Shown in pieces: positions 38,437-47,400 of a stretch of 64,000 bases of DNA (the stretch's first letter is position 1; each line of letters opens with the position of its first letter). The position numbers and the translations under genes were made by a program. Source of the DNA: Podarcis vaucheri (taxonomy: Eukaryota). Below the pieces are notes generated by a model. It saw only the letters and a program-made list of their open reading frames with translations. It was not told the DNA's origin and searched no databases. Location of the stretch: NCBI GenBank assembly GCA_965113315.1, contig OZ220369.1, one strand, 5' to 3'.

Positions 38437-41400
38437 CATGTGTTTGTGTTGCTATTACTATCAGCAACTGTAAAATCTGCCAAGTTAATGCATGTTGAAC
38501 CCAAGTTCCTCATCATCTTCCATCAATAATGGTTTTCACTTTTAATCGTTAAATCTTTATTGAAGTGGTTCTAGAAAGTTACTGATAAATGGGTTGTGTT
38601 TCTGTAGTAGTTATGGAATATCTTGTAGCTTTTATGGGATCTTGGTTAGTGGTCTAAGTTTATCTTTCTCCAGAGGGCATTAAAGGTAAAGGGTAAAGGG
38701 ACCCCTTCCCATTAGGTCCAGTCGTGACCGACTCTGGGGTTGCGGCGCTCATCTCACTTTATTGGCCGAGGGAACCGGCGTACAGCTTCCGGGTCATGTG
38801 GCCAGCATGACTAAGCCGCTTCTGGCGAACCAGAGCAGCGCACGGAGACGCTGTTTACCTTCCCACCAGAGCGGTTCCTATTTATCTACTTGCACTTTGA
38901 CGTGGTTTTGAACTGCTAGGTTGGCAGGAGCTGGGACCGAGCAACAGGAGCTCACCCTGTCACAGGGATTCGAACCGCTGACCTTCTGATCGGCAAGTCC
39001 TAGGCTCTGTGGTTTAACCCACAGCGCCACCTGCGTTCAGAGGGCATTAGGTTCTCCTAATAGGAAAAATCTGTCTGACATATACTCTTGCTTAACCCAT
39101 GTGAACTTTTCTAGCCTCATAGGGAATTGTTCATGTAACTTGACTACAGATTATATGAAGCATTGCTCCATTAGGGCAAAAACATACTTTCTTTTTTTAA
39201 AAGGAGTTTATCAGGGAAAGGGTGGAAGTAAGCAGTAGTTACTAGAGGAAGGTCAAATTAATTTTGACGATTCCAGGCCTATTCTTGCTTGTGGATTTGC
39301 CCAAAAGCTAGTGACAATCTTCTCAGTCAGTGCAGTTGAGTTATATGTATGATTCGTGACCGCCTTGGACAACTCATCTTTCATAGCTTTTAGGTATGTT
39401 GCATACTGTCAGGGGATGGTTAGCTGCTTGTGCTTAAAATTGTGCCCCTTCAGAGTTTGTGCGACCCCACAAACCTCTGTGTGTGACAGAGCTCCTCAGA
39501 CATGTCTGCTCTAGTCACTAGTAGAGTCTGACAGTGGCTGTCTGCGGAAGCGCTTCCAGCAAAGAAGTTCCTTAACGGAAACGCGTCTCCTGGACTCACG
39601 ACGTGGCAGCTTCCGGCGGAGTATGGGTCTCCCTGCAGTTGCTTCTGACACCTCCCCGCTATTTTCGCTCGAAGTGTCTCTCACCCCTTTCTCTCCCCTG
39701 CTACTTCCTGCCTGGGCTGCTGCGTCTCTCTCAGCATTACTGAGATCCTCCTCCAGAGACCCCGCGCTCCCCCTGCTGGTCCCTGCTTTGGCTGTTGACT
39801 CTCTCCCAGTCTCTGGGAGCCTTACCACTTCCCTTTCCTCCGATGTCAGTTCCCTGACATCCACCTCCCCTCCAGGGCCCCCCTCTCCCCCGCCCCTACT
39901 TTCTCCTCTGGGCGGTGAGGAGCTGAAACCCCTAAAAGAATCCTCTTCATCTTCAGACGTCTCGAACAATTCCCTCCATCGGTCTTCGTTCCGACTCGCT
40001 GAATCCTCCTCCACCTCGGAATCAGCGAACCCCTCCAACTCTTCTTCGTCGTCGGTGGTGGCGAAGTATTCCCTCCGGAACCTCGCCACTGGCTGGGGTT
40101 TTCTAGGGAATCTCTGATGAAAAGTTTCAATCAAAACCTCGTCATCTACATCCTCTGCCCTGACCCAGGTGTTTTCCGACTCCGGCTCCCCTTCCCACAT
40201 TACCAAATACTCTACTTGCTCTCCCCTCCACCTAGAATCGAGAATCTCCGCTACATGGTAGCTGTGTTCTTTTTCCTCCATAGCTGGTCCCCTATTGACC
40301 CTCCCCTCTCTGTCCCCTATATACGGTGACAGCAATGATCTGTGGAACACTGGGTGCAACTTCATGTGGTTCGGTAACCGGAGTCTGAAAGCCACTGGGT
40401 TGACCTGTTGCGTGACTTCAAATGGGCCCAGTCTTTTGGGTCTTAACTTCTTACAACCTCCTTTAAATGGTAACCCTTGGGTGGACAGCCACACCTGGTC
40501 CCCCACCCTAATGCTTTCCCCTTCCCTTCTGGTTTTGTCTGCCTGCCTCTTATATTCCTCCTTCGCCCTGTTTAAATTAAGTTGGAGCTGGCGATGGATC
40601 GCTTCCATTTCTTCAACGAACTGTTCTGCGGCAGGAACGCTCCAGTTCTCCCCCTCCCCCCCTGGGAAGGCTCGGGGATGACACCCGTGATTGGCCAAAA
40701 AAGGGCTCATCCCCGTGGACACGTTCTCTGCATTGTTATAGGCAAATTCTGCCAACGCCAGCTTCTCCACCCAATCATTCTCTCTGTCATTCACATAACA
40801 CCTCAAATATTGCTGGAGGACACCATTAGCTCTTTCCGCCTGCCCATTGGTTTCTGGATGACGGGCAGTGGAAAAATTCACCTCTACATGCAATAAGCTC
40901 ATGAGCTTCCTCCAGAACCTGGAAGTAAATTGTTTCCCTCGGTCCGAAACCACCCTCAAGGGGGCACCATGCAACCTAAACACATTTTCCACAAACAATC
41001 TAGCGGTTTCTTCTGCTGTGACCGCATGTGAGCAGGCTATAAAGTGGGCCATCTTGGTTAACAGGTCTACCACAACCATAATGGCTGTCTTCCCTTTGGA
41101 CCTGGGCAGATCAGTCATGAAATCTATTGCCACTGCCTCCCATGGTCTTTCCGGCGTGGGTAGTGGTTCTAATAAACCGGCCGGTGCCCGCCTCTCCCCC
41201 TTGGCTCGTTGACATCGGTCACACCCTCTCACATATTCACGCACATCTTCCCTGACCTTGGGCCACCAGAATTCCCTGGTAACCAGCCACATGGTTTTGT
41301 GTTGCCCAAAATGCCCTGCTGTGGGGCTATCGTGCAGTTGCTTGAGTACCTTTTCCCTCAATTCCCCTTCAGGTATGTATAACGCTCCCTTGTAATACAA

Positions 41401-44400
41401 CGCCCCGTTTCTCTCCTCAAAACCCCCGGGTTTGTCTCCCTCCCTCCTGAGACCCCTGAGTTTGTCCTGGGCGTATTCATCCTGCACCGTTCCCTCTACC
41501 AGTTCCCTTTGCCCCACCAAAGCCGCCCCACACACCCAGCGGTCCTCGGGAATAACATGGGTCTCTTCGGGTGCACCCTCTCCCTCCAAATATTCAGGTT
41601 TGCGTGAGAGAGCGTCCGCCCTAACGTTCTCCGGGCCTGGTACGTAACAAATCTCAAAGTTAAATTTGGAGAACTCCTGGGCCCATCTCAACTGCCTTTG
41701 GTTGAGCACTCGCGCAGTTCTCCAATACTCTAGATTCTTATGGTCCGTGCACACTTGCACCTTCTGTTGTGCACCAATTAGTAGGTGCCTCCATCTCCGG
41801 AAGGCCTCATAAATAGCCAGAAGTTCCCGGTCGTGCACCGTGTAGTTTCTCTCAGATTTGTTCAGCTTTCGCGAAAAGAAGGCACACGGTCGCCACTCTG
41901 ACCCCTCCTTCCCCGGCTGCAGAAGAAGCACCGCCCCTATGGCTCTGTCAGAAGCGTCTGTTTCGACCCTCAGCTTTTTTTGTAAATCCACATGTAGAAG
42001 TTGTTCGTCAGAGGCGAAGGCCCTTTTCAGTTCCTCAAACGCTCGCTCCGCCTCCCCCGTCCAAACAAACTTCTTTTTGCTGCTGAGACAGTCCGTGATG
42101 GGCGCCGTCAGGTGGGCGAAGTTTCGGATGAACTTACGATAAAAGTTTCCAAACCCTAGGAACCTCTGCACATCCTTCTTGGTCTTGGGTGTTTTCCATT
42201 CCAGCACCGCTTGAACCTTGCCGGGGTCCATGGCCAACCCCTTGTCTGACAAGCGGTACCCCAGGAATTCCACCTCCTTGGTATGAAACTGACACTTTTC
42301 CAGTTTCACCCACAGTCCGTTGGCTTGCAGCCTGCTCAACACTTCTCTGACGTCTCTCACATGTTGCTCCTCATTCTCCGAATACACCAACACGTCATCT
42401 AAGAAGGCCACGCAATTTTTGTAGAGCAAAGGCCCCAGTACATGGTTCATAAAGGCTTGAAAACACGCGGAGCCTGTTTGTAATCCAAAAGGCATAACGA
42501 GGTATTCAAATGCCCCCAAAGGGGTGAACATGGTGGTCTTCCATTCATCCCCTTTCCTTATACGTATCAGGTTGTACGCCCCCCTTAGGTCCAGCTTTGT
42601 AAAAATCTTTCCTTTTCGCACCCTGGTCAAAATATCATCAATCCTGGGCATAGGAAAAGCCGCCGGCTCTGTCACTGCATTTAGGGCCCGAAAGTCACAT
42701 ACCAGCCTCGGCTTGTCCGTGTTTTTTTTATCCACAAAAAACACTGGGCTACCCCCCGCTGCCTTGGACTCTCTGATGAAGCCTCTCTTCAGGTTCTTGT
42801 CAATGAACGCTCGCAACTCCTGCATCTCCCTGTCTGACATGGCATACAACTTGCCTACAGGAAGCTGTGCTCCAGGGAGTAAATTGATCTGGCAATCAAA
42901 GGGCCTATGCGGGGGTAGTTGGTCCGCTTCCTTCTCGCTGAACACGTCGCTGAGATCAGCATACTGTGGTGGCACCTTCCCCTTCTCCATCACTTCCGTC
43001 CCTGCTAGGGTGGCTTGGACCCCTGCTGACCCCTTTTCCGCCCTGCAGTGTTCTAAGCAGTGTGCGGAACCGAAGGAAACCACTCTTTGATGCCAGCCCA
43101 CCAGCGGATCATGTAGGGCTAGCCAGCTCATTCCCAAAATAATGGGAGCGCCTCCCAAGGTGGCCACATTAAACGCTATCAGTTCTGTGTGCCTTGCCAC
43201 CCTCATTATCATTGGGACGGTCTGCAAGCTGACGCCTCCTCCCAACAGTTCCCTGCCATCAATCGTGGTCACCTGCAGGGGGTTGCTTAAAGGGATAGTC
43301 TGTATCTGGTGCTCAGCAGCAAACTCCTTGCTCATGAAATTGCAGGAGCTGCCTGAGTCCAACAGCGCCTTTATTTTTAGGGGGTGTCCATTTTGCAGCT
43401 CTAGCGACACTTCAATCACTAGAGCAGGTCGAGGAGCTTCTGGCACTGGCACTTGGGGAAGGGGCACTTTCACTGCTCTTTGGCCTGGCTGCAGTGCCCT
43501 GCTGGCAACCAGGCGTTGGCTTTTACCTGCTCCGTTTCTCCCTGCTCTTCCCCCTCAACAGCTCCCACCATCCCTTGCCATTCCTTCCTCTGGGGGCAGA
43601 CTCTGGCAAAGTGGCCTGGCTGTTGGCAGAGATAGCATTTCCGGGCTCCCTTTCCCTCCTTCTTCGCCCCCTCACTGGGCTTTGAAACTGCGCGCGCGCG
43701 GGCTGTTCCGATTTCCATCGGCTCTGCCGGCGGGAAAGCTGGCTCAGGAATGTCTGGAATGCGGAACTCCTTCCAACGTTCCCCTCTCCCTTCCCGCCTC
43801 TCCAAGGCTCTTGCCTCCTGGCGCGCTCCAATGGTCAGCGCAGATTTGGTCAGCTGATCCATAGACCCCGCCCTGGGGCTCCTGGCCAGCTCGTCTTTCA
43901 CAGCTGAAGAAAGACCTTCTTCAAATAGCATCTGAATGGGTGCCGCCGATAAATCCCACCCCAATCTGTGAATCAGCATGGTAAATTCAGTCCAGTACTC
44001 ACGGACAGATCTGCTTCCCTGCTTGCAAGCCATTAGCTGTCTGCGTACCGCCCCTTCCTCAATATCGCTGGAAAACATGATATCCATTGCACGAAAGAAT
44101 TTCATAGTGTCCTTTAGGATATCGTTGTGCGTTGCCATCAGGGGTCGAACCCAGTCCCGCGCCCCCTTCTCAAGATGCCCAATTACGAACGCAACTCGCG
44201 ATTCCTCATCAGGGAACTCATCAAACTGCACATTCAGAGCATATTGCATCTCGGTCCTAAAGGCATGGTAATCCTTGGGGTCCCCCCCAAACTTCTGCAC
44301 CAATCCTGGTACCTTTCTGGGGAACTGAGTGGTTCTCCCCTTTTTGTCAGCATCCTGAGCCCTTCTCTCCTCGAGCCTCGCCGTCTGCAGCGCAAGTTGG

Positions 44401-47400
44401 ACCTCCAGAGCTTGATACCTTTCTTCCAAGCTTGGACCAGCTCCAACCCCTGCGTCTCCGGTTCCGACTGGGTTGCTCATGATGCTTTCTCCTGCACAGG
44501 CAGCGTACAGAGACTGTCAGACTGCTGTCAGGGGATGGTTAGCTGCTTGTGCTTAAAATTGTGCCCCTTCAGAGTTTGTGCGACCCCACAAACCTCTGTG
44601 TGTGACAGAGCTCCTCAGACATGTCTGCTCTAGTCACTAGTAGAGTCTGACAGTGGCTGTCTGCGGAAGCGCTTCCAGCAAAGAAGTTCCTTAACGGAAA
44701 CGCGTCTCCTGGACTCACGACGTGGCAGCTTCCGGCGGAGTATGGGTCTCCCTGCAGTTGCTTCTGACACCTCCCCGCTATTTTCGCTCGAAGTGTCTCT
44801 CACCCCTTTCTCTCCCCTGCTACTTCCTGCCTGGGCTGCTGCGTCTCTCTCAGCATTACTGAGATCCTCCTCCAGAGACCCCGCGCTCCCCCTGCTGGTC
44901 CCTGCTTTGGCTGTTGACTCTCTCCCAGTCTCTGGGAGCCTTACCACTTCCCTTTCCTCCGATGTCAGTTCCCTGACACATACCTATGTGGACCAGAATG
45001 AGGATTTGATGGTTTCTTTCTTAGTTTTAACTTACACTTGGTGAGGCTTGGACTATTGATGTTTGAAGGCTTTGCTCTATGTATTAACACTGCTTGGAGT
45101 TTGGGGAATGCTGCCAGTCTTAAACAGGACCCTTCAATTGAAGGTGAGAGTAAGATTTTGCAAGCATTCAACGGCCTTGTAAAATAGAATTGCTTTCTCT
45201 GCCATTGATATTATAATCCATTTTGGTGTTCTAAGGAGAGACAGAATGTGGCACCTGTGGTTTGGTTTAGAAATGTCAAACATGCTTTAAAAATAAAATC
45301 CCATCAAAAGTAAAGAAATAAAATAAAATAAAAAGGGAGGGTGAGACTGCTTCCAGGCAGCACCTCTACAACTTTAAAGAAATGCAAGATTGTATTATTA
45401 GGGCAAAAGCTCTCTTGTTTCAGTTCAGTTCTGTGGTTTCTTTCAAGTTGGAGTCTTCTCTCCTATTTAATACTAAGCTCTGTCTGTTCTTTGTTATAGA
45501 AATGAAACATAAAGGGCTCTTCTTTTCATTTCTTAACAGAAAGGATCCAAATGCTTTCTTTTCATTTCCTGTGACTGACTTTATTGCTCCTGGCTACTCC
45601 ATGATCATTAAACGCCCAATGGATTTTAGTACCATGAAAGAGAAGATCAAGAACAATGGTTACCAGTCCATAGAAGAACTAAAGGTGCTTTTAATTTATA
45701 TTTTAACTGCAGAGGGGGGATTAGACGTTGACACTTGCTGGTACTAGCAATTGCATTGTGCAGGTTTTTTTCAATATTTTATTCATTTTGGTGCTGCACT
45801 TTCATAGTTTATGAACACATAGAATAAAAAATTGGCGCATCTGGCTTTCAGAGTTGTTCATTTGCTTTCTTTAGAGAAAGTCTTTGTGAATGTTTTCAAG
45901 AGACATTTTTCATGTTCCAGGGTGTTGGAAATTTTGTGTGTGTGTGTGTGTGTCAAGGAGAAAAGACTGAACAGCAGAAGTACTTGATCTTTTAAAACAA
46001 GGATGTGAAATGAACCTGGTCATTAGTGCATCAGAGTAGTAAATACTTATAGTCATAATTAAGTGACTCTTCACCATTGTACTAATAAGGTTGAGGTTTT
46101 TCTGTGTTTAAGAGAACTACTTAAATCACAGAAGCATGTAAATATGTTTGTGTTGTTGTTGTTTTGTTGTTGTTTTCTTGAGAAATGTAGGAAAGAAGCT
46201 TTAGCACACAGGACAGTAATAAGAATCCCTTACGTTCTTCCAGAATGTAATACAATTGCATTACTGAAACAAATATTGTGTATATTGACTCTCATCCCCC
46301 CCCCCAAAAAAAAAGTTTAGGAAATTTTAAAAAATGCAACTTGCCTCTTTCCTGCCTTATATAGCACTATATTTTAAAATGCCTGCCCCAACCTTTTATC
46401 CTTTTATTTGCATATTTTAAAGAAAAACACGTGTGATTCCCTTATTGCTGTTGTCATCCTGACAAAAAGAGCCCTCTGATCTCTTGGGAGTACTGTCTGC
46501 ATTGAGCATTGCCTTTATCAGCACATTAATATGAAAAGTGTAAAGTCAGATGTCTGTCATAAGCATCTTTGGTCTCAGATCAAATCTGTCATCTTTAACA
46601 CACATCAACTGCTGGCCTAGTGTTTTGCAAACTAATATCTAAGTAAAAGGATACCAAATCCCAACCAGAGACTCAGCCTGTCACGCTTAAGAGCTTCGAG
46701 GCGGCAGAGAATGCAGGCCTGGTGCCTCTTCTGCCAGCTAGTGCAATGATTTCTTAGCCTGCCCTTTTCTTCTATCTGCAGTAGTTCTGTAGTTAGAGGT
46801 GGGTCAGGAGAGAGACTATTAGAACAGTGGAGTAAGCTAGAACCATGGAGTAGCAATGCTTCCTATCTGCATGTGCGCACACAGCAGTGCTGTCTATGCA
46901 TGTGTGTGTGCACAAGCGTGGTTGCTAGGTTGGAACTTGGAAATTTTACTAATAAACTATATAGACTAACTTGCACCTGTATTATAATGCATTATTCCTT
47001 TATCCTCCATATTATGAGGATACTTTTTTAGCCAGGCAGAACAAACAGCACCTGCCATCTTGTCCACAGTACAAATTTCCATACATAAAGGGGCAGATAT
47101 ATTTTCTAGGAAACATTCCTGTAAGTTCCTACTAATGTGTCTTACTTCTTCTGTTGATACAGGAGAACTTCAAACTGATGTGTACTAACGCCATGGTCTA
47201 TAACAAACCAGAGACCATTTATTACAAAGCTGCTAAAAAACTCTTGCATTCAGGAATGAAAATACTCAGCCAGGTAACTGAATTAAGGAAATAATTCAAG
47301 AGGTATTGGAGTTTTGTTGGCTTGTGTATGGTTTCATCATATTTCCATTTGTGTTTAATAGAGAAGAGGCCATTCTTTTCTAGCTAAAGGCTAAGTCATT

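What the first reader, a model, noticed from the sequence alone, without database searches (positions are those of the whole stretch)
44494..44654. tRNA-independent self-priming signature: exact 11-nt LTR/PBS complement plus U5-leader stem
Seen: the PBS position, 2 nt after the 5' LTR, reads 5'-AGTCTGACAGT-3' on the minus strand (44523-44513) with no TGG tRNA complement. The LTR sense strand contains its exact reverse complement ACTGTCAGACT (44654-44644), and pairing stops on both sides at 11 nt. U5 GCACAAGCAGC (44552-44542) can also pair 10/11 with leader GCTGCCTGTGC (44504-44494), and U5 holds a hairpin (cagagtttgtg...cacaaacctctg). Established: S. pombe Tf1 primes reverse transcription with the first 11 nt of its own mRNA, cleaved by RT/RNase H, in a structure with U5-leader and U5 inverted-repeat stems. 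Self-priming has been proposed for the Tf1/sushi group. Inference: transcription starts near 44654 and this young amniote element self-primes, making it an intact vertebrate model of the mechanism.
Basis: partly seen in the sequence, partly recalled or inferred. Interest (0 to 1): 0.72.

Follow-up and report, generated by a model that had tools for sequence, protein, structure and literature searches.

The report
Self-priming jumping gene in a lizard
A young, high-copy jumping gene of a lizard has no landing site for a host tRNA; that site matches 11 letters of the element's own end-repeat, a match kept with different letters in related families, so it likely starts copying itself with the tip of its own RNA, as already proposed for this group.

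Summary
Confirmed; a known kind. The finding lies in a 5.6-kb chromodomain Ty3/gypsy element (44978-39407, minus strand; identical 453-nt LTRs, 5-nt target duplication, open gag and pol) of a lacertid lizard. The PBS (44523-44513) is the exact complement of LTR 44654-44644: 58 of 20,000 shuffles do as well, and 1 of 4,655 internal 11-mers (the PBS itself). Eleven different primer sequences in this genome each match their own PBS. A one-base PBS variant predicted its LTR partner in 30 of 30 copies, and the two sites agree in 57 of 57 copies. The U5-leader stem covaries in sister families. The start at 44654 is inferred (pyrimidine/purine start, TATA-like box at -31 in one family, invariant C after the PBS), not measured. 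Self-priming is already described for the Tf1/sushi group, vertebrates included by inference. This scan noted like signatures in copia, BEL/Pao and another gypsy clade, none in this family. Side finding: Pol reads through U3 and the primer copy, and its integrase tail holds two conserved helix-acidic-FxGF units resembling LEDGF/HRP2-binding motifs (binding untested).

The parts
44526..44978 (-). 5' LTR, 453 nt, TG..CA
   Evidence: identical to the 3' LTR
44979..44983 (-). target-site duplication GTATG, 5' copy
44644..44654 (-). predicted self-primer (inferred first 11 nt of the RNA); pyrimidine at -1, purine at +1
44570..44598 (-). hairpin (7 bp, 1-nt bulge, 4 bp); kept only in the nearest subfamily; role unknown
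44542..44552 (-). 5' arm of the LTR-leader stem
44524..44525 (-). 2-nt spacer GC between LTR and PBS; the G can pair with RNA nt 12 across a 1-nt bulge
44513..44523 (-). primer-binding site, exact complement of 44654-44644
44512..44512 (-). C directly after the PBS, invariant in 10 of 10 primer types; inferred partner or copy of the cap G
   Evidence: cap reading is inference
44494..44504 (-). leader arm of the LTR-leader stem
43470..44480 (-). gag, 336 aa, Retrotrans_gag, DUF4939, CCHC knuckle; best PDB match PEG10
43521..43527 (-). candidate -1 slip site GGTAAAA (12 of 13 relatives have GGGAAAC here), followed by a predicted stem
39511..43554 (-). pol, 1347 codons open, -1 frame to gag: PR, RT, RNase H, integrase, SH3, chromodomain, acidic and basic tail; last 349 nt lie inside the 3' LTR
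40027..40080 (-). integrase tail unit 1: aromatic helix, acidic linker, [F/L]xGF
39925..39978 (-). integrase tail unit 2: aromatic helix, acidic linker, FxGF
39860..39873 (-). polypurine tract next to the 3' LTR
39407..39859 (-). 3' LTR; its primer copy (39535-39525) is also coding sequence of the Pol tail
39402..39406 (-). target-site duplication GTATG, 3' copy

Best explanation
This is a recently inserted chromodomain Ty3/gypsy retrotransposon whose primer-binding site pairs exactly with 11 bases of its own LTR, and it likely primes reverse transcription as Tf1 does: the RNA is predicted to start at 44654, fold back onto the PBS and be cut by the element's RNase H after base 11, which would free the primer. 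A second stem between the LTR end and the leader would hold the fold. During plus-strand synthesis the primer would be copied into the new PBS, which would keep the two sites matched as families diverge. Shown: anatomy, complementarity, covariation and linkage. Inferred: start site, cleavage, copying of primer and cap.
For: Exact 11/11 at offset 2; 58 of 20,000 shuffles; 1 of 4,655 internal 11-mers. Of 60 ten-kb loci fetched around gag hits, 35 had an LTR pair: 15 match 11/11, 12 (one distant family, RT 52% identical) match 10/10, 2 have one mismatch, 2 have two, 4 give no match. Each of 9 PBS types fits its own LTR best; 8 of 12 copies of a nearer subfamily match 11/11 with two compensating changes. 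In 16 aligned copies 5 of 11 pairs change on both sides, against 23-40% pairing for slid controls. Prospective test: PBS T>C variant (203 pattern matches against 647) has the LTR A>G partner in 30 of 30. The two sites agree in 57 of 57 copies while a site 9 nt from the PBS site shows all four combinations, and L203 has both switched on an otherwise window-type haplotype. Start-site hints: pyrimidine at -1 and purine at +1 in 10 of 10 primer types, C after the PBS in 10 of 10, GATAAA at -31/-30 in 7 of 8 copies of the distant family. No tRNA fit. Mechanism for Tf1 as stated in PMC7175516, PMC10085805, PMC11042837 (passages).
Against: No direct start-site or cleavage data. No TATA box and no poly(A) hexamer in this LTR or in 600 nt of downstream flank. 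No copy truncated at 44654 was found. Only two of the three Tf1 duplexes are supported: an IR-type stem beat shuffles (<=25 of 500) in 2 of 13 elements, not in the window copy (150 of 500). The LTR-leader stem passed in 8 of 13 and is not in the window copy's lowest-energy fold when the PBS is blocked. The 16 aligned copies were chosen among exact matches, so their 100% pairing is not a test; copies share ancestry, so counts overstate independent events. The A/G change is at a CpG on both sides, so parallel decay could contribute.
Confidence: 0.86

Rival explanations
1. The same 11-mer primes, but it is not the 5' end of the genomic RNA: transcription starts further upstream and the primer is cut out on both sides, or it comes in trans from short LTR transcripts.
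For: No TATA box in this subfamily; many LTR copies could supply short RNAs (2,169 candidates); covariation alone does not locate the start.
Against: Start-type bases at -1/+1 and an invariant C after the PBS in 10 of 10 primer types; TATA-like box at -31/-30 in the distant family; pairing stops at the same 5' base in every family.
Confidence: 0.07
2. The pairing is a structural element for packaging, dimer formation or translation control, or a chance echo of the LTR end motif (the 11-mer contains TGTCAG), and priming happens otherwise.
For: In the window copy the 11-mer includes the LTR terminal hexamer; other covarying hairpins occur nearby.
Against: The primers of the other families lack that hexamer yet match; the paired site always starts 2 nt after the LTR, where minus-strand synthesis must begin; no other primer is in sight.
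Confidence: 0.04
3. A host tRNA, tRNA half or other host small RNA primes, and the LTR match is incidental.
For: Half-tRNA priming exists in copia lineages (PMC6317226, passages); my tRNA set is partial (19 anticodon types).
Against: No TGG; no 3'-anchored match of 3 nt or more and at most 7 nt internal match among 45 distinct tRNA genes; eleven PBS sequences that follow their own LTR cannot all follow conserved host RNAs.
Confidence: 0.03

Closest known systems
Tf1/Tf2 of Schizosaccharomyces pombe (self-priming shown by experiment)
   Same: 11-nt LTR sequence complementary to a PBS just after the 5' LTR, no tRNA site, a PBS-flanking stem, chromodomain integrase (PMC7175516, PMC10085805).
   Different: Vertebrate host; separate gag and pol in -1 overlap and a CCHC Gag (Tf1: single ORF, no CCHC, PMC10085805); third duplex not supported; Pol runs through U3 and the primer copy; no test of cleavage here.
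Vertebrate Tf1/sushi elements, GyDB V-clade (sushi-ichi, Amn-ichi/-ni/-san; pufferfish V-clade1)
   Same: Chromodomain gypsy of vertebrates, present in amniotes (PMC2774666); self-priming and 'pretzel' fold proposed for the group (Butler 2001 as cited in PMC10085805, PMC6317226); Pol overlapping the LTR and very young copies reported for V-clade1 (PMC11117352); Gag closest to PEG10 among solved structures.
   Different: Here the inference rests on eleven covarying primer types in one genome and on linkage among young copies. This subfamily lacks AATAAA and has GGTAAAA for GGGAAAC. I found no account of this family's PBS or integrase tail; Butler 2001 itself was not available.
TND-interacting motifs of MLL1, IWS1, JPO2, JIL-1 (for the integrase tail only)
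   Same: Aromatic helix, acidic S/T-rich linker of 8-9 residues and FxGF, twice in series (motif defined in PMC9987994, PMC8022399).
   Different: Carried by a retrotransposon integrase; unit 1 of the window copy has LxGF; no sequence match to the solved complexes; binding untested.

Membership tests
Tf1/sushi group (V-clade chromovirus) | Ty3/gypsy order PR-RT-RNase H-IN between LTRs with TG..CA and a 5-nt target duplication | tested here: met
Tf1/sushi group (V-clade chromovirus) | Chromodomain at the integrase C-terminus | tested here: met
   PF00385, E 8.5e-12, residues 1099-1148
Tf1/sushi group (V-clade chromovirus) | No tRNA PBS; >=10-nt complement in the own LTR starting 0-5 nt after the LTR (criterion of PMC6317226) | tested here: met
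Tf1/sushi group (V-clade chromovirus) | Three-duplex 'pretzel' fold | tested here: inconclusive
   central duplex and LTR-leader stem supported; IR-type stem only in 2 of 13 elements
Tf1/sushi group (V-clade chromovirus) | CCHC Gag and -1 gag-pol overlap (non-fission-yeast members) | tested here: met
   GGGAAAC in 12 of 13 relatives, GGTAAAA in the window family; frameshifting itself not tested
Tf1/sushi group (V-clade chromovirus) | RT/IN tree groups it with sushi-ichi, Amn and fungal members | not tested
   no named reference sequences came from any tool; the tree holds only copies from this genome
Tf1-type self-priming | The complementary 11-mer is the 5' end of the RNA | tested here: inconclusive
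   indirect support; only contigs available; no truncated copy
Tf1-type self-priming | RNase H cut between bases 11 and 12 | not testable with these tools
   RNase H motifs present; needs a bench assay
tRNA-primed gypsy elements | PBS complementary to a tRNA 3' end (TGG) | tested here: not met
   (45 distinct tRNA genes, 19 anticodon types; partial set)
TND-interacting motif (integrase tail) | Aromatic helix, acidic linker of 8-16 residues, FxGF | tested here: met
   helix is read from residue spacing, not modelled
TND-interacting motif (integrase tail) | Binds the LEDGF or HRP2 TND | not tested

The most novel reading that the evidence does not exclude
The integrase of this lizard clade mimics the host's own LEDGF/HRP2-binding motifs twice (helix, acidic linker, FxGF) and so reaches the chromatin tether that HIV integrase uses, by a different route. 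The far end of the same protein is encoded by U3 and by the self-primer itself, so one 11-base stretch is primer, RNA start and codons. The invariant C after every PBS is the copied cap, a DNA record of the start site.
Probability: 0.4. Interest if true: 0.7.

Novelty: new member of a known kind. Interest (0 to 1): 0.42.

Why it matters
Self-priming has been shown by experiment in fission yeast; in the papers I could see, the vertebrate case is an inference from single sequences. This genome gives a natural compensatory-change series (eleven primer types, and matched changes among young copies) that makes the vertebrate case very likely and names the start base to test. The side finding in the integrase tail, if it binds, would add a new way for a retrotransposon to be steered to active chromatin.

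Tried and rejected
RNA evidence for the start: no RNA holder listed; the runs laid are contigs, RNA status a guess, and show no start or end. Search for copies truncated at 44654: 0 matches, weak evidence either way. Rfam over 39000-45500: 0 matches. The repeat finder gave a 300-nt LTR; the alignment showed 453 nt. 25 of 60 ten-kb loci had no LTR pair at the expected place and were dropped before the count. The 13 other long ORFs outside the element have no Pfam match. Integrase tail against PDB sequences: 0 matches. Complex prediction of the tail with HRP2: tool not available, no verdict. Not held: Butler 2001, Levin 1995 and 1996, Lin and Levin 1998, Sharma 2018, Atwood-Moore 2006; what they say is taken from citing papers. 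No supplements were read; Additional files 1 and 5 of PMC6317226 list predicted self-primers and may include vertebrate V-clade elements. PMC4340606 passages were not relevant. Earlier notes of this scan by sequence, by place and on the tail motif: nothing.

Full report
1. What is there. The finding sits at the 5' end of a complete LTR retrotransposon on the minus strand, 44978-39407. The LTRs are 453 nt and identical, start TGTCAGGG and end CCCCTGACA, and are flanked by the 5-nt duplication GTATG. gag (44480-43470) has Retrotrans_gag, DUF4939 and a CCHC knuckle; pol (43554-39511, 1347 codons without a stop, -1 frame to gag) has protease, RT, RNase H, integrase, SH3 and a chromodomain. The catalytic motifs are present. 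The best solved-structure matches are Ty3 for Pol and PEG10 for Gag (E 4.5e-4). The host is a lacertid lizard, judged from database hits to the Pol tail and to a host exon. The family is young and large: the 40 scored hits of 2,169 candidates are 99-100% identical, and 647 places hold the LTR-PBS junction pattern.

2. The observation. The PBS 44523-44513 is the exact complement of 44654-44644 and starts 2 nt after the LTR. There is no TGG in the first 45 nt after the LTR. Chance: 58 of 20,000 dinucleotide shuffles of the LTR reach 11 nt or more at offsets 0-5, and of 4,655 internal 11-mers only the PBS has an exact complement in the LTR. The 10/11 stem 44552-44542 with 44504-44494 is as described. 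The hairpin is real but misquoted (cagaggtttgtg...cacaaactctg, 44598-44570).

3. Covariation across families. I fetched 60 ten-kb stretches around gag hits in the same genome. 35 had an LTR pair at the expected place; 25 did not and were dropped. Taking the 11 nt at offset 2: 15 match their own LTR exactly, 12 belong to one distant family (RT about 52% identical) that matches 10 of 10 with the eleventh base unpaired, 2 have one mismatch, 2 have two, and 4 give no match, their detected repeats looking partial or interrupted. Nine PBS types tested against each other's LTRs always fit their own best. A nearer subfamily adds a type with two compensating changes, exact in 8 of 12 copies; the other four match 10 or 9 nt or carry mismatches. 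The primer types fall on separate branches of an RT tree of 24 copies, with modest support for most forks. In an alignment of 16 copies picked among exact matches, 5 of the 11 pairs change on both sides, and slid controls pair 23-40%; RNAalifold finds the same helix unaided.

4. A prospective test among young copies. A pattern with a non-T base at PBS position 5 matched 203 places, the 100 listed all with C. All 30 fetched carry the predicted G at 44648 in the LTR. Over 57 copies (7 best hits including the window's own, the 30 variants, 20 more of the common type) the two sites agree every time, while a site 9 nt downstream of the PBS site occurs in all four combinations, and copy L203 has both sites switched on an otherwise window-type haplotype. 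[quoted passage not shown] Caveats: shared descent, and both sites are CpG, so parallel decay is possible. Contigs of other organisms show other letters at the same partner sites (44519/44648 and 44522/44645) among the 40 rows shown, but are unphased.

5. The start site is inferred, not measured. In 10 of 10 primer types the base before the primer is a pyrimidine, the first base a purine, and the base after the PBS a C. The distant family has GATAAA at -31 or -30 in 7 of 8 copies listed. I read the invariant C as the partner or copy of the cap G; that RTs can copy a cap G is recalled knowledge, and the C could simply be inherited. Base 12 (C, once T) can pair with the G just after the LTR across a 1-nt bulge in all types. 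Against: the window's subfamily has no TATA box and no poly(A) hexamer, whereas L061, L076, L091 and L092 have AATAAA about 70 nt after the primer; no 5'-truncated copy was found; no raw RNA reads were available.

6. The flanking stems. The LTR-leader stem pairs in 89.6% of cells with 3 of 12 pairs changed on both sides and beats shuffles (25 or fewer of 500) in 8 of 13 elements, the window copy among them (2 of 500; search ranges were set after seeing the data). It is absent from the window copy's lowest-energy fold with the PBS blocked, and present in six relatives. An IR-type stem beside the PBS passes in 2 of 13.

7. tRNA control. ARAGORN on 50 tRNA-bearing stretches gave 58 genes, 45 distinct, 19 anticodon types. 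None matches the PBS region at its 3' end (3 nt or more); the longest internal match is 7 nt. The set is partial.

8. Mechanism (0.86). The RNA likely starts at 44654, folds back on the PBS, is cut by RNase H after base 11, and the fragment primes minus-strand DNA, as described for Tf1 (PMC7175516, passage). Rivals: same primer from another source (0.07), a non-priming structure (0.04), a host RNA primer (0.03).

9. What is known. PMC10085805 (passages and the second half of section 28) calls self-priming a common feature of the Tf1/sushi group and cites Butler 2001 for the 'pretzel' fold; PMC4600332 and PMC6317226 (passages) say it is implicated from fungi to vertebrates; PMC2774666 (passages) places V-clade elements in fish, amphibians and amniotes; PMC11117352 (passages) reports a very young V-clade1 whose Pol overlaps the LTR. 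PMC2864245 and PMC3601003 were seen as passages only and add little. The primary Levin and Butler papers were not held. The element works like Tf1 and meets every group feature I could test except the third duplex (inconclusive); its place in a tree with named members was not tested. Verdict: new member of a known kind. Earlier notes of this scan report like signatures in copia, BEL/Pao and another gypsy clade, untested here.

10. Side finding. Pol reads 349 nt into the 3' LTR and stops 25 nt past the first base of the primer copy; L064, L087 and L093 stop at the same place (L074 within 1 nt) with a conserved tail, while other copies stop earlier, and four intact copies of the distant family stop 23-42 nt before their primer. 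Differences in the last 39 codons fall mostly on third positions (20-21, against 6-14 at the other two), so the primer is also coding. Between chromodomain and LTR the tail holds two units of aromatic helix, acidic linker and FxGF, with the aromatic and GF residues invariant in 12 aligned copies while the spacer varies in length. 20 of 40 copies with a chromodomain have at least one strict acidic FxGF; the distant family has none. The pattern, written after seeing the sequence, occurs in 0 of 20,000 shuffles of the tail. It matches the description of TND-interacting motifs that bind LEDGF and HRP2 (PMC9987994, PMC8022399, 10.1101/624023; passages), and the host has two genes with that domain. 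Searches listed no paper on such a motif in a retrotransposon integrase (listings only). Binding is untested.

11. Scores. Observation confirmed, interpretation supported, interest 0.42; novel case 0.4 likely, 0.7 if true.

Noticed in passing
window 40080-39925 (-); L061, L064-L067, L074-L076, L084, L087, L093: Two conserved helix-acidic-FxGF units in the integrase tail, resembling LEDGF/HRP2-binding motifs; absent from the distant L073 family.
   Followed up: partly
window 39859-39511 (-): Pol reads through all of U3 and the primer copy of the 3' LTR; conserved basic tail ending DSxSD, third-position excess of differences.
   Followed up: partly
window 44512; all ten primer types: Invariant C right after the PBS, also in the family with a 10-nt primer; candidate cap-G signature.
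   Followed up: partly
window 44978-44526: No AATAAA or common variant in this subfamily's LTR or in L064, L087, L096 downstream of the primer, while L061, L076, L091, L092 have it about 70 nt after the primer; 3'-end formation unexplained.
   Followed up: partly
window 43527-43521 (-): Candidate slip site GGTAAAA in 30 of 30 best copies and 27 of 30 variants, where 12 of 13 relatives have GGGAAAC.
   Followed up: partly
window 44632-44606 (-) and aligned columns 31-56 of A1: A hairpin just after the Pol stop codon appears in each subfamily with quite different letters.
   Followed up: no
L215-L234, L185-L214: U3, R/U5 and gag haplotypes are shuffled among young copies, pointing to frequent recombination between subfamilies.
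   Followed up: no
G000 contig C41: Most top gag hits fall on this 41-Mb contig, which looks like a repeat-rich sex chromosome; not tested.
   Followed up: no
G000:C39:20146470, C28:3348225, C41:329761: Some copies of the distant family have gag and pol in one open frame of about 1,550 codons, others a 307-codon gag frame.
   Followed up: no
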